Shown here in pieces: positions 288 through 17,671 of a stretch of 32,000 nucleotides of DNA (the stretch's first letter is position 1; each line of letters begins with the position of its first letter). Location: contig JAVVGB010000003.1 of the NCBI GenBank assembly GCA_032249315.1, forward strand, positions 19,099-51,098, read 5' to 3'. This DNA is from Thermoproteota archaeon (GTDB lineage: Archaea; Thermoproteota; Thermoprotei; Gearchaeales; Gearchaeaceae). The notes under the pieces were generated by a model. It was not told where the DNA came from. It saw only the letters and a list, made by a program, of their open reading frames with translations, and did no database searches. The position numbers and the translations under genes are program-made.

Positions 288-372
288 GCCGGGATTGCCT
301 AGCCTGGTAAGGCGCAGGCCTGGAGAGCCTGTGGGGATTTTCCCCGCGTGGGTTCAAATCCCACTCCCGGCG
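288..372 (+). tRNA. tRNA-Ser(GGA), 85 nt, long variable arm, no intron
   Basis: Acceptor GCCGGGA/TCCCGGC + G73, D arm GCC-TAGCCTGGTAA-GGC, anticodon loop CTGGAGA, variable arm GGGGATTTTCCCC, T arm GTGGGTTCAAATCCCAC. Confidence 0.95.
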
Positions 373-1333
373 TTTTCTATAATTCTTAATACTTTATCTA
401 CTTTTGCAACTATACCAGATTTTGACTTTACAATTTCCTCAGAATTTAGCTCAGATTTAGCTATAGCAATTATTTCGTTATATACTGTATTAATAGTAAC
501 TATAGATTTAGCTTTAACATCAGAAGTTACAGCTATAACTGCAGGAGAAGCTACAAAGGATCCATGGGTAATCGAAAATAAAGAAGAATCTTTAACATAA
601 ATTTTAGGTAAAAAGAATAACAATTCTTCCAAAGGTCTTACAAATTCATTTAAATAAGTAGGATTATTATAGTTTTTCCATTCTCTATAAGCACCAAAAA
701 GTTCATGCAAGGTTATTACTCTTTTATCATTTTCATTTAAGGTTCCTATTCCTATTCTTCTTAAATCTTTCATATGAGCTCCACAACCTAATATTTCACC
801 TATATCATGACATAATTTTCTAACATATGTTCCTGCTTGACATTTAATTTTTAATAATACATCTCTATCTTTAAAATCAAGAATTTCTATGTTGTAAATT
901 TTCCTTCTCCTAGGCTTTTTGCTAACAGCAGATCTTAAAGGTGGTTTTTGATAAATCTCTCCTATAAACATTTTAATAACTTTTTCAAGTTCATTTTTAT
1001 CTACATTTTCATGCAATTGCATTTCGCAAATATATTCTTTATCCATTTTAGCTAATAAATCAGCTACTTTTCTAGCTTTTCCAAAAAGTATTATTAATAA
1101 ACCCGAAACAGCGGGATTTCTCCTTAATAATCTAGAGTCCCGCTGTGGGCTACAGGAAATTGAAATTCATCTCTTATCCATGCAGCTATTTGATGACTTG
1201 TAGGTCCTTTAGGTTTGTCAATAATTGAATAACCTAATTGTAATTTTTCTTCGATACTTTTTTTTACCAAAGGTACTGGAGAAAGTATAATTTTATGTTT
1301 TGTAGTCTCTTTATATAAGATCTTTCTTTGCAT
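354..1333 (-). CDS. cbf5: Cbf5/TruB-family tRNA/rRNA pseudouridine synthase (H/ACA RNP catalytic subunit), interrupted by a 14-nt intron: join of complement 1132..1333 and complement 354..1117, 321 aa
   Basis: Two ORF-track fragments (1124..1333 and 354..1046) join in frame after removal of 1118..1131: ...HSGTLD-PAVSGLLIILFGKARKVADLLAKMDKEYICEM...; 202+764=966 nt=322 codons; catalytic GTLDP motif restored; position after L14e. Confidence 0.93.
1118..1131 (-). other. Predicted 14-nt archaeal (splicing-endonuclease type) intron in cbf5: ATTATTAAGGAGAA
   Basis: Exon helix ACAGCGGGA/TCCCGCTGT (9 bp), central helix CTCT/GGAG (one G-U), 3' bulge AA|A, 5' side AG|A; splicing gives GGG ACT CTA GAT CCC GCT GTT. 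Confidence 0.88.
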
Positions 1334-10542: not shown

Positions 10543-10869
10543 TTATTTTATTACTTTTAAAATAACAGATGAAACAGTCTTAGAAATGGGCCTTATTTCA
10601 CCTATAATTACTCTGTCATTTTCTTTTACTTTAATACAGTCAGGTATATGAACATGATATTTACTTCTTCTCCTTTCATATCTTTGATATTTTCTAATCC
10701 AAACTAACCTTTCTTTAACAACAACTGCAGTTTTATTCATTTTTATTTTTAAAACTGTTCCTTCGTCAATTCTGCCTCTAACACTAATTTCACCATGAAA
10801 AGGACATGTTTTATCATTACATTCGGCTTCTGGAGGTTCTATACCAAAAATTATTCTTTTTCTCCTCAT
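10543..10869 (-). CDS. rps17: 30S ribosomal protein S17 (uS17)
   Basis: CPFHGEISVRGRIDEGTVLKIKMNKTAVVVKERLVWIRKYQRYERRRSKYHVHIPDCI. Confidence 0.94.
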   Translation of the reverse strand: MRRKRIIFGIEPPEAECNDKTCPFHGEISVRGRIDEGTVLKIKMNKTAVVVKERLVWIRKYQRYERRRSKYHVHIPDCIKVKENDRVIIGEIRPISKTVSSVILKVIK

Positions 10870-11129
10870 AGTTTTTTTATTCTATCTTCAGGTTTTCCTA
10901 AAAGATCTTCTCCTTTTATCATTACTTTATCACCATTTATTAAAAATAAAAAATTAAAACATCTTTTTAAATACTTTTTTATTTTATTATCTTTTGTTAA
11001 TACTTTTATAGTTTCCTTAGTTTCATCGATAATCATACCTTCACCTACTTTTTTATATTTTTTATCATAACATTCAACAAATAAACCCAACAATTCATGA
11101 TATATTATATTATCTTTTCTTAGCTTCAT
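10866..11129 (-). CDS. rnp1: Ribonuclease P protein component 1 (Rpp29/Pop4 family), 87 aa
   Basis: IIYHELLGLFVECYDKKYKKVGEGMIIDETKETIKVLTKDNKIKKYLKRCFNFLFLINGDKVMIKGEDLLGKPEDRIKK; position between L29 and S17. Confidence 0.88.
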   Translation of the reverse strand: MKLRKDNIIYHELLGLFVECYDKKYKKVGEGMIIDETKETIKVLTKDNKIKKYLKRCFNFLFLINGDKVMIKGEDLLGKPEDRIKKL

Positions 11130-16802: not shown

Positions 16803-16926
16803 TTTACTTCTTTTTTTCCTTCTTTTCTTCTTTTCTTTCTTCTACAGATTTTGTTTCTTCTTTAAATATAGAAGTTCTTTGTCTTCCGCCCATATAGTAA
16901 TAATAAATACTTTAATAGGATAAAAA

Positions 16927-17504: not shown

Positions 17505-17601
17505 CGCCGGGAGTGGGATTCGAACCCACGAGGGGAAAAATCCCCACAGGCTCTCAAGGCCTGCGCCTTGTCCACTAGGCTTTCGGGAATTTTATCCCGG
17601 C
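17505..17601 (-). tRNA. tRNA-Ser(UGA) with a 12-nt insert (candidate noncanonical intron) between positions 8 and 9; 85 nt without the insert
   Basis: Acceptor GCCGGGA/TCCCGGC + G73, D arm GCC-TAGTGGACAA-GGC, anticodon loop TTGAGA with TGA, variable arm GGGGATTTTTCCCC, T arm GTGGGTTCGAATCCCAC. Confidence 0.88.
17582..17593 (-). other. Candidate 12-nt intron AAAATTCCCGAA in tRNA-Ser(UGA)
   Basis: Central helix CGGG (positions 3-6) / CCCG (intron), bulges AU|A and AA|A; removal restores U8-A9 and 85-nt length equal to tRNA-Ser(GGA). Confidence 0.6.
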
Positions 17602-17671
17602 TAATTTCCCGGCAATATTATTAATAATAGAAATATAAAATAAATCTAAATATAAATGCAAACCATAAAAC

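What the first reader, a model, noticed from the sequence alone, without database searches (positions are those of the whole stretch)
17582..17613. tRNA-Ser(UGA): probable noncanonical 12-nt intron between positions 8 and 9
Minus strand reads GCCGGGAU^AAAATTCCCGAA^AGCCTAGTGGACAAGGC.... A normal tRNA has only positions 8-9 between the acceptor and D stems. Excising AAAATTCCCGAA restores U8-A9 and gives an 85-nt tRNA, the same length as tRNA-Ser(GGA) at 288-372. The insert can form the expected splice geometry: exon CGGG (nt 3-6) pairs with intron CCCG, a 3-nt AA^A bulge follows, and the 5' site AU^A lies in the loop, flanked by two further G-C pairs. This matches the layout of the cbf5 intron in the same window (central helix, AA^A bulge, A/U-rich loop). 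An intron this small at 8/9, competing with the acceptor stem for the same CGGG, would be unusual and implies refolding after cleavage.
Basis: partly seen in the sequence, partly recalled or inferred. Interest (0 to 1): 0.78.

Follow-up and report, generated by a model that had tools for sequence, protein, structure and literature searches.

The report
tRNA mini-intron with leader decoy strand
An archaeal serine tRNA gene carries a conserved 12-base intron right after its eighth base, and just upstream sits a conserved extra copy of the tRNA's first seven bases that probably holds the molecule together while the intron is cut out.

Summary
On the minus strand, 17601-17505 reads GCCGGGAU|AAAAUUCCCGAA|AGCC... 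Removing 17593-17582 gives a perfect 85-nt tRNA-Ser(UGA). The insert is identical in five independent metagenome assemblies. An equivalent insert of 12-18 nt lies at the same site in 10 further related lineages. Exons and the 3' end CCCGA(A/U) are invariant; the 5' part of the insert varies.

The splice geometry is a relaxed bulge-helix-loop: exon C3-G6 pairs with intron CCCG, and each cut lies 2 nt 3' of its helix strand. A 14-nt cbf5 intron in the same window follows the same rule, as does an intron-bearing/intron-less pair of sister genomes.

It is present in every intron-bearing lineage, absent from intron-less orthologues, and changes along with the acceptor stem.

Folding predicts that this copy pairs with the 3' acceptor strand. 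That would free the real 5' strand to form the splice helix and tether the 8-nt exon. This is a new variant of endonuclease-spliced introns. There is no RNA evidence yet.

The parts
17607..17613 (-). Leader copy (L) of the acceptor 5' strand, GCCGGGA. Predicted to pair with the 3' acceptor strand in the precursor.
   Evidence: Present in all 12 intron-bearing lineages and 7/7 complementary to the 3' acceptor strand in each. It is 100% identical among 8 lineages whose flanks are 46-50% identical. Predicted P(L:T) is 0.79-0.99.
17602..17606 (-). Spacer AAUUA between the leader copy and the real 5' end. It is 3-6 nt long and variable in relatives.
17594..17601 (-). 5' exon, tRNA positions 1-8 (GCCGGGAU). 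C3-G6 form the central helix with the intron.
17582..17593 (-). 12-nt intron AAAAUUCCCGAA between U8 and A9. CCCG pairs with exon C3-G6. The last two A plus A9 form the 3-nt 3' splice bulge.
   Evidence: Excision gives a perfect tRNA-Ser(UGA). The intron is conserved at this site in relatives, with a variable 5' part.
17505..17581 (-). 3' exon, tRNA positions 9-73. It includes the anticodon UGA, the long variable arm, the 3' acceptor strand UCCCGGC and the discriminator G.
1118..1131 (-). 14-nt intron AUUAUUAAGGAGAA in the cbf5 mRNA, with the same motif style: an 8-bp outer helix, central helix CUCU:GGAG, 3' site AA^A, and 5' site AG^A in a loop. Comparison case from the same organism.
   Evidence: Excision gives CTCTAGATCCCGCTG, exactly the uninterrupted cbf5 of relative L016.
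288..372 (+). tRNA-Ser(GGA) with the identical acceptor stem but no intron and no leader copy. Internal control.
10869..11129 (-). Gene for RNase P protein subunit Rpp29. The enzyme needed to remove the leader copy is probably present.
   Evidence: PF01868, E=3.5e-15

Best explanation
The gene encodes tRNA-Ser(UGA), interrupted between U8 and A9 by a 12-nt intron that the archaeal splicing endonuclease removes. The splice motif is a relaxed bulge-helix-loop. Exon bases C3-G6 pair with intron CCCG to form the 4-bp central helix. The 3' cut lies in the 3-nt bulge A-A^A9. The 5' cut, A7-U8^a1, lies at the symmetric position in the hairpin loop. The same exon strand must later form the acceptor stem, and the 5' exon is only 8 nt long. 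To cope with this, the precursor carries a second copy (L) of the acceptor 5' strand 3-6 nt upstream. In the precursor, L pairs with the 3' acceptor strand (T) to make a 7-bp stand-in acceptor stem. That frees the true 5' strand (E) to form the splice helix. It keeps the tiny 5' exon tethered to the tRNA body during cutting and ligation. It also hides the RNase P site until splicing is done. After ligation, E replaces L on T and RNase P removes L plus the spacer. Shown here: the sequence anatomy, its conservation and co-variation, the coupling of L with the intron, and the predicted folds. Inferred: transcription of L, the actual cuts, the order of events, and removal by RNase P.
For: (1) Excision restores a perfect 85-nt tRNA-Ser(UGA). 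The predicted junctions GCCGGGAU|AGCCUAG and GCCGGGGU|GGCCGAG are the sequences of intron-less orthologues L100 and L093.
(2) Eleven lineages (S10 97% down to 58% identical) keep an insert of 12-18 nt at the same site. CCCGA(A/U) is invariant and the 5' part is only 41-46% identical. In L221 and L018 the insert can form a full bulge-helix-bulge with an inner helix.
(3) The rule 'cut 2 nt 3' of each central-helix strand' is borne out twice by intron-less relatives. The window's 14-nt cbf5 intron, once excised, gives relative L016's uninterrupted cbf5. L029 (intron) and L032 (no intron; S10 93% identical) give the junction U8|C9.
(4) L is present in 12 of 12 intron-bearing lineages and always 7/7 complementary to T. 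It is G at position 7 where the stem is G7-C66, and A at position 5 where the stem is A5-U68. It is 100% conserved where flanks are about 50% identical.
(5) L is absent from tRNA-Ser(GGA) in the same window, which has the same acceptor stem. It is also absent from intron-less L032. In the roughly two dozen tRNAs of outgroup loci, the only other upstream copies lie 24 nt or more away, against 3-6 nt for L.
(6) Folding: in all 8 clade-A lineages folded, the minimum-energy fold is L:T plus E:intron. With L, P(central helix) is 0.8-1.0 in 9 of 11 lineages. With L deleted or scrambled at 75 C, E:T wins (0.72-0.97) and P(central helix) falls to 0.22 or less.
(7) After splicing, the L:T and E:T cloverleaves are iso-energetic (-46.4 against -45.9 kcal/mol), so exchange is feasible.
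(8) An Rpp29 gene is in the window.
(9) Bulge-helix-loop substrates are cut by endonucleases that carry the crenarchaeal or ARMAN loop (PMC12397907; PMC3241643).
Against: There is no RNA evidence for splicing, for transcription of L, or for the order of events. The transcription start is unknown. AT-rich flanks allow TATA-like boxes that would start transcription either at L or at E. In L011 and L128 the central helix is a bare 4 bp, with low predicted probability (0.06-0.71) even with L. In L029 it has a G.A mismatch, and the predicted fold is less clear. The outer helix next to the 3' bulge is only 2 bp (G1C2:G10C11) and competes with the D stem. The nearest-neighbour model still favours L:T after splicing. 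Tertiary contacts or RNase P would have to drive the exchange. Co-variation of L rests on two events, and the one in clade B could be an independent origin by local duplication. The host's endonuclease type was not determined. In M. kandleri, end trimming precedes intron removal (PMC3695527), the opposite of the order proposed here.
Confidence: 0.6

Rival explanations
1. The intron is real and spliced, but the leader copy is only a footprint of the event that created the intron, such as a local duplication or a mobile-element integration scar. It has no role in maturation.
For: L029 and L032 show that the copy and the intron appear or disappear together on a short time scale, as a single insertion event would produce. 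Partial 5' duplications of tRNA genes occur upstream of other archaeal tRNAs (L051, L088). The mobile-element model of intron gain predicts scattered tRNA fragments (PMC3293823).
Against: L is 100% identical across 8 lineages in which the spacer, promoter region, intron 5' part and 3' flank have diverged to 46-70% identity. It follows the stem change A7 to G7. Deleting it in silico abolishes the splice helix.
Confidence: 0.15
2. The upstream copy is not transcribed. It acts at the DNA level as a promoter-proximal element, or is kept identical by gene conversion. Transcription starts at the real +1.
For: In some lineages a TATA-like octamer lies about 19-22 nt upstream of the real 5' end (L006, L014). 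Uninterrupted tRNAs in the window seem to have very short leaders.
Against: In L018 and L221 the only good BRE/TATA-like box ends 22-23 nt before L. In L009, L017, L011 and L128 a conserved CTTA(A)TTA block lies about 24-31 nt before L (read by eye). No known archaeal promoter element is a GC-rich copy of the acceptor stem. L's complementarity to the 3' acceptor strand is unexplained at the DNA level.
Confidence: 0.08
3. The upstream copy is the true 5' exon. The intron is the 24-30-nt stretch spacer + second copy + insert, spliced through pairing of L with the intron CCCG.
For: L also carries CGGG, so it could form the same central helix. L may sit at the transcription start. In five lineages L is followed by U, giving the same mature sequence.
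Against: The base after L would become position 8. It is A, C or U depending on lineage, whereas U8 after the second copy is invariant. The window would give A8. L:intron together with E:T is a pseudoknot. The second copy's full 8-nt identity to a tRNA 5' end would be unexplained for an intron.
Confidence: 0.05
4. It is a decaying pseudogene, or a tRNA that keeps the insert as an extra hairpin. No splicing occurs.
For: Standard finders fail on it. No expression data exist.
Against: It holds a conserved position after S10, where many archaea keep a tRNA-Ser. Exons are invariant while the intron loop is variable. A UGA-anticodon serine tRNA is needed in a 30% GC genome (inference). An unspliced RNA would lack a U8-A9 connector. 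The identity of E to the complement of T, including G1C2 and U8 that lie outside the hairpin, is needed only if E ends up in the acceptor stem.
Confidence: 0.04

Closest known systems
Non-canonical archaeal tRNA introns with relaxed bulge-helix-bulge / bulge-helix-loop motifs (Crenarchaeota/Thermoproteales, ARMAN), cut by (alpha-beta)2 or epsilon2 splicing endonucleases
   Same: It is a short intron outside position 37/38. It has a 4-bp exon-intron helix, a 3-nt bulge at one splice site and a loop at the other, and excision restores a canonical cloverleaf. The same organism also has a cbf5 mRNA mini-intron, as known for Crenarchaeota.
   Different: The position is 8/9. That is not among the positions listed in the review I could read: 3/4, 20/21, 22/23, 25/26, 29/30, 30/31, 45/46, 53/54, 56/57, 59/60 'etc.' (PMC4090602). 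The central helix uses the acceptor 5' strand itself. A conserved upstream copy of that strand accompanies the intron. I found no description of such an accessory element.
Split (trans-spliced) and permuted tRNAs, where leader/trailer sequences pair to build the splice motif and hold the pieces together
   Same: Sequence outside the mature tRNA is used to hold exon pieces together so that the endonuclease and ligase can act (PMC4090602, PMC4033280, PMC3218864).
   Different: Here the gene is contiguous. The helper pairs with a mature-tRNA strand (the 3' acceptor strand) rather than with another leader or trailer. It mimics the acceptor 5' strand and must later be displaced and removed.
Partial tRNA-gene duplications left by integrating elements (att sites), and the mobile-element model of intron gain
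   Same: A repeated piece of the tRNA 5' end lies upstream of the gene. Intron and repeat are gained together (L029 against L032).
   Different: The repeat is only 7 nt and lies 3-6 nt away. No element sits between the copies. The repeat is kept under purifying selection and co-varies with the stem. True att-like duplications seen in passing are 25-46 nt long and 68-115 nt apart.

Membership tests
Endonuclease-spliced (BHB/BHL) archaeal tRNA intron | Removing the insert restores a canonical tRNA cloverleaf with all conserved positions | tested here: met
   ARAGORN calls an 85-nt tRNA-Ser(tga) after excision. The junction equals that of intron-less orthologues.
Endonuclease-spliced (BHB/BHL) archaeal tRNA intron | A 4-bp central helix with splice sites in 3-nt bulges (or a loop) at symmetric positions, 2 nt 3' of each helix strand | tested here: met
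   C3-G6:CCCG pairs 4/4 in the 11 clade-A lineages and 3/4 in L029. The 3' bulge is AA^A, AA^G, AU^G or AA^C. The 5' site A/G7-U8^N lies in the loop (BHL). Full BHB is possible in L221 and L018. The rule was checked on cbf5 and on L029/L032.
Endonuclease-spliced (BHB/BHL) archaeal tRNA intron | Exons conserved; intron free to vary except where it builds the motif | tested here: met
   E and the intron 3' end are 100% identical; the intron 5' part is 46% identical.
Endonuclease-spliced (BHB/BHL) archaeal tRNA intron | Host encodes a broad-specificity endonuclease ((alpha-beta)2 with the crenarchaeal loop, or epsilon2) | not tested
   No endonuclease gene was identified in the regions whose gene products were examined; much of the window was not scanned. 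The genome is known only as a 'Thermoproteota archaeon' MAG. The cbf5 mini-intron implies that such an activity exists.
Endonuclease-spliced (BHB/BHL) archaeal tRNA intron | Spliced mature RNA observed | not testable with these tools
   No RNA data are available here.
Split / permuted tRNA | Exon pieces encoded at separate loci or in permuted order | tested here: not met
   The gene is contiguous and colinear: L, spacer, exon 1, intron, exon 2.
Integrase att-site duplication of a tRNA gene | A repeat of about 20 nt or more of the tRNA flanking an integrated element | tested here: not met
   The repeat is 7 nt and the spacer 3-6 nt, with no element between them. Contrast L051 and L088.
tRNA pseudogene | Loss of constraint on stems and conserved bases; patchy occurrence | tested here: not met
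   Exons are invariant across 11 lineages. Synteny after S10 is kept.

The most novel reading that the evidence does not exclude
A leader-encoded copy of the acceptor 5' strand is an obligatory cis-acting stand-in and tether. It makes introns within the first eight nucleotides of a tRNA workable and forces splicing to precede RNase P cleavage, the reverse of the order reported for M. kandleri. It is created in the same insertion event as the intron. The L029/L032 pair would then be a snapshot of how non-canonical tRNA introns are born.
Probability: 0.45. Interest if true: 0.82.

Novelty: new variant of a known kind. Interest (0 to 1): 0.72.

Why it matters
It would extend the known positions of archaeal tRNA introns to the acceptor/D-arm junction. 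It would also show a simple RNA solution to a real mechanical problem: one strand cannot serve both the splice helix and the acceptor stem, and an 8-nt exon would diffuse away after cleavage. It makes three predictions that are easy to test in vitro: dependence on the leader copy, rescue by compensatory mutation, and splicing before 5' processing. It gives a closely related with/without genome pair for studying how such introns arise. On the practical side, standard finders miscall this gene as tRNA-His or as a fragment. MAG annotations of these lineages will therefore appear to lack tRNA-Ser(UGA).

Tried and rejected
It supplied outgroups but not the clade or a precise taxon.
Of its 120 hits, 117 were chance matches in GC-rich bacteria, and only 3 were true tRNA hits.
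- The look-up of the window's right-edge protein found nothing. The left extension added no further tRNAs, so I could not examine other tRNAs of this genome.
- MAFFT split the leader copy with gaps, so I counted pairs with a script instead.
- The TATA-box scan in AT-rich flanks was inconclusive for most lineages.
- Sugahara 2008 and Marck & Grosjean 2003, which hold the full position lists, are not in the library. 'Position 8/9 not reported' therefore rests on reviews only.
- I considered the leader copy extending the outer helix next to the 3' bulge. There is no complementarity beyond G1C2:G10C11.
- I considered endonuclease-based removal of the leader. There is no conserved helix at the -1/+1 site.
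- I considered L:intron plus E:T as the productive fold. It is a pseudoknot, and it would yield a non-U base at position 8.

Full report
OBSERVATION. On the minus strand the window reads UAUU-GCCGGGA-AAUUA-GCCGGGAU-AAAAUUCCCGAA-AGCCUAGUGGACAAGGC...CUCCCGGCG.

ARAGORN miscalls the unspliced locus as a 76-nt tRNA-His. Rfam's tRNA model matches only positions 6-65, at 39.7 bits. Deleting 17593-17582 yields a perfect 85-nt tRNA-Ser(UGA) with U8-A9. That is the same length as tRNA-Ser(GGA) at 288-372.

The window is 30.4% GC and the tRNA is 64% GC. The heptamer GCCGGGA occurs 5 times in the window against 0.44 expected. Those five are the two strands of each of the two tRNA-Ser acceptor stems plus the upstream copy.

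NOT AN ARTEFACT, NOT A PSEUDOGENE. The gene follows the conserved cluster rpoA''-L30e-NusA-S12-S7-EF1alpha-S10. Many archaea keep a tRNA-Ser directly after S10.

The region is base-for-base identical in five contigs assembled from different JGI and ENA samples. The organism is known only as a 'Thermoproteota archaeon' MAG.

Using S10 homologues, I fetched the syntenic locus from relatives and from a metagenome pattern scan. Eleven distinct lineages, with S10 identity from 97% down to 58%, carry an insert at exactly the same place. Lengths in nt are given in parentheses.
- window: AAAAUUCCCGAA (12)
- L006: AAAAAAAUCCCGAA (14)
- L007: AAAAAAUCCCGAA (13)
- L009: AAUAUUUCCCGAA (13)
- L017: AAUAAUUUCCCGAA (14)
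- L011: AUGAAAACCCGAA (13)
- L128: ACGAAAGCCCGAA (13)
- L014: AACUUUCCCGAA (12)
- L223: UUGCAUCCCGAA (12)
- L018: UGUAAAAACCCCGAA (15)
- L221: UGUCGAAAAGACCCCGAU (18)

Among the eight lineages of the window's group, exon bases 1-8 and the last six intron bases are 100% identical. The first five intron bases are 46% identical, like the flanks at 47-50%. This is the signature of an intron constrained only where it builds a splice motif.

SPLICE GEOMETRY. In all 11 lineages exon C3-G6 is complementary (4/4) to intron CCCG. Two intron bases follow (AA, or AU in L221), then position 9 (A or G). Cutting 2 nt 3' of each strand of that 4-bp helix gives ...A/G7-U8 | A/G9-G10..., which is exactly the junction a tRNA needs.

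The same junctions are the native sequence of intron-less orthologues: L100 reads GCCGGGAUAGCCUAG and L093 reads GCCGGGGUGGCCGAG.

In the window the 5' site lies in an 8-nt hairpin loop, a bulge-helix-loop. In L221 a full bulge-helix-bulge is possible: the bulge G7-U8^u and an inner helix guc:gac closed by a GAAAA loop. L018 has a 2-bp inner helix.

The cutting rule holds in this very organism. The window's cbf5 gene is interrupted at 1131-1118 by AUUAUUAAGGAGAA. The motif has an outer helix CAGCGGGA:UCCCGCUG, a central helix CUCU:GGAG, a 5' site AG^A in a loop, and a 3' site AA^A. Excision gives CTCTAGATCCCGCTG, which is identical to the uninterrupted cbf5 of relative L016.

Bulge-helix-loop substrates are known to be cut by endonucleases that carry the crenarchaeal or ARMAN-specific loop (PMC3241643; PMC12397907; PMC4033280).

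THE LEADER COPY. Every intron-bearing lineage has a second copy (L) of the acceptor 5' strand, 3-6 nt upstream of the real 5' end (E). The spacers are AAUUA, UUA, UAA, AAA, CUA, UUUA, CUCCUA and UACUA.
- L is 7/7 complementary to the 3' acceptor strand (T) in all lineages.
- Where the stem is G7-C66 (L018, L221), L is GCCGGGG as well.
- L is 100% identical in eight lineages whose surrounding non-coding sequence is about 50% identical.
- The base after L is A, C or U depending on lineage, whereas U8 after E is invariant. E, not L, is therefore the exon.

Controls lack L:
- tRNA-Ser(GGA) in the same window, which has the identical acceptor stem.
- Among the roughly two dozen tRNAs in 80 outgroup loci, the only other upstream copies are distant: 24 nt or more away, against 3-6 nt for L. 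Those I examined are 25-46-nt partial gene duplications lying 68-115 nt upstream (L051, L088).

A SECOND, INDEPENDENT CASE. That same scan of outgroup loci found L029, an uncultured archaeon with 37% GC and S10 only 54% identical to the window's. Its sequence is GCCGAGA-CUAGUU-GCCGAGAU-[UAUUGAUAAUAUCGAA]-CGCAU.... Removing the 16 nt gives tRNA-Ser(GGA), which also has a 19-nt intron near position 30/31.

Its sister L032 (S10 93% identical) has the uninterrupted GCCGAGAUCGCAU... and no leader copy. Three things follow:
- The junction predicted by the cutting rule is confirmed.
- L again matches the local acceptor stem (A5-U68).
- L and the 8/9 intron are gained or lost together.

FOLDING. RNAfold pairs L with T (7 bp) and E with the intron in all eight precursors tested. 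For the window, L009 and L017, the minimum-energy structure at 37 C is a complete cloverleaf built on L:T.

For the window, three alternative folds compare as follows:

| Fold | 37 C (kcal/mol) | 75 C (kcal/mol) |
|---|---|---|
| L:T plus E:intron plus cloverleaf | -56.0 | -17.8 |
| Ordinary E:T cloverleaf, intron unpaired | -45.9 | -14.5 |
| L:T plus E:intron, with the 2-bp outer helix replacing the D stem | -47.4 | -14.9 |

In the partition function with L present, P(central helix) is 0.81-1.00 in 9 of 11 lineages. It is 0.06-0.71 in L011 and L128, where the helix is a bare 4 bp. P(L:T) is 0.79-0.99. With L deleted or scrambled at 75 C, E:T takes over (0.72-0.97) and P(central helix) is 0.22 or less.

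After intron removal the L:T and E:T cloverleaves differ by only 0.2-0.5 kcal/mol. The unconstrained model still prefers L:T.

MECHANISM (inference). One strand cannot be both the splice helix and the acceptor stem. In addition, an 8-nt 5' exon held only by a helix to the excised intron would be lost after cleavage. L solves both problems.
1. L occupies T, so E is free to present the motif.
2. L:T keeps the 5' piece (L-spacer-E) tethered to the body for ligation.
3. L:T also keeps E out of an acceptor stem, so RNase P cannot remove the leader prematurely. A leaderless, intron-bearing intermediate would be trapped in the non-spliceable E:T fold.
4. After ligation, E and L compete on equal terms. 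tRNA tertiary contacts (U8, for example) and RNase P are expected to pull the equilibrium towards E:T.

An Rpp29 gene is present in the window. This order, splicing before 5' trimming, is the reverse of that reported for M. kandleri (PMC3695527).

TATA-like boxes end 22-23 nt before L in L018 and L221. A conserved CTTA(A)TTA block lies about 24-31 nt before L in four other lineages. Transcription may therefore start at L itself, but the AT-rich flanks make this uncertain.

RIVALS.
- L as a mere footprint of the insertion event. This fits the L029/L032 coupling and the mobile-element model (PMC3293823). It does not fit L's perfect conservation amid diverged flanks.
- L as a DNA-level element that is not transcribed. 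This cannot be excluded without transcript 5' ends.
- L as the true exon. This is contradicted by the variable base that would become position 8.
- A pseudogene or an unspliced extra arm. This is contradicted by the conservation pattern, and by the need for E to match T outside the hairpin.

COMPARISON AND NOVELTY. The intron belongs, by every feature testable here, to the endonuclease-spliced non-canonical archaeal tRNA introns. Position 8/9 is not among the positions listed in the reviews I could read. The primary catalogues were not available.

I found no description of a leader copy of the acceptor strand accompanying an intron. The nearest concept is the leader/trailer pairing of split and permuted tRNAs. 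I rate it a new variant of a known kind.

LIMITS. There are no RNA data. The endonuclease type is unknown. Other tRNAs of this genome could not be examined. Co-variation of L rests on two events. Two lineages have a weak predicted central helix.

Noticed in passing
window 1118-1131 (-), within cbf5 (exon 1 from about 1333 down to 1132; exon 2 from 1117 down to 387): There is a 14-nt bulge-helix-loop intron in the cbf5 mRNA. Gene callers split the gene into 69-aa and 230-aa ORFs. Relative L016 has an uninterrupted cbf5, so the intron is polymorphic within the clade.
   Followed up: yes
window 17505-17580 (-): ARAGORN reports a false tRNA-His(gtg) here, and Rfam reports only a truncated tRNA. 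Automated annotation of these MAGs will probably miss tRNA-Ser(UGA) or mislabel it.
   Followed up: yes
L029 2128-2260 (+), compared with L032 1878-1962: An unrelated uncultured archaeon has the same leader-copy plus 8/9-intron architecture in tRNA-Ser(GGA), together with a second 19-nt intron near 30/31. Its sister genome (S10 93% identical) has neither intron nor leader copy. This looks like a recent gain or loss.
   Followed up: partly
window 16804-16893 (-); L001 5389-5478; L014 3047-3160: A small conserved ORF of 29-37 aa lies between the AdoMet decarboxylase and RNA methyltransferase genes in all relatives. Its N-terminus is MGG(R/K)QRTSIF, followed by a lysine/glutamate-rich tail. It has no Pfam hit on record.
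   Followed up: no
L051 1900-2165; L088 2800-3030: Altiarchaeales and Thermoplasmatales loci carry 25-46-nt duplications of a tRNA 5' part (with its promoter in L051), 68-115 nt upstream of the intact gene. These look like integration (att) scars.
   Followed up: partly
L016 compared with L014/L015 (same S10 protein): There are two gene orders downstream of the S10-tRNA-Ser pair in one population. cbf5-cytidylate kinase-L34e follows directly in L016, and AdoMet decarboxylase follows in L014 and L015. The rearrangement breakpoint is at the tRNA 3' end.
   Followed up: no
window 10869-11129 (-): The RNase P protein subunit Rpp29 is encoded between L29 and S17 in the ribosomal protein operon.
   Followed up: yes
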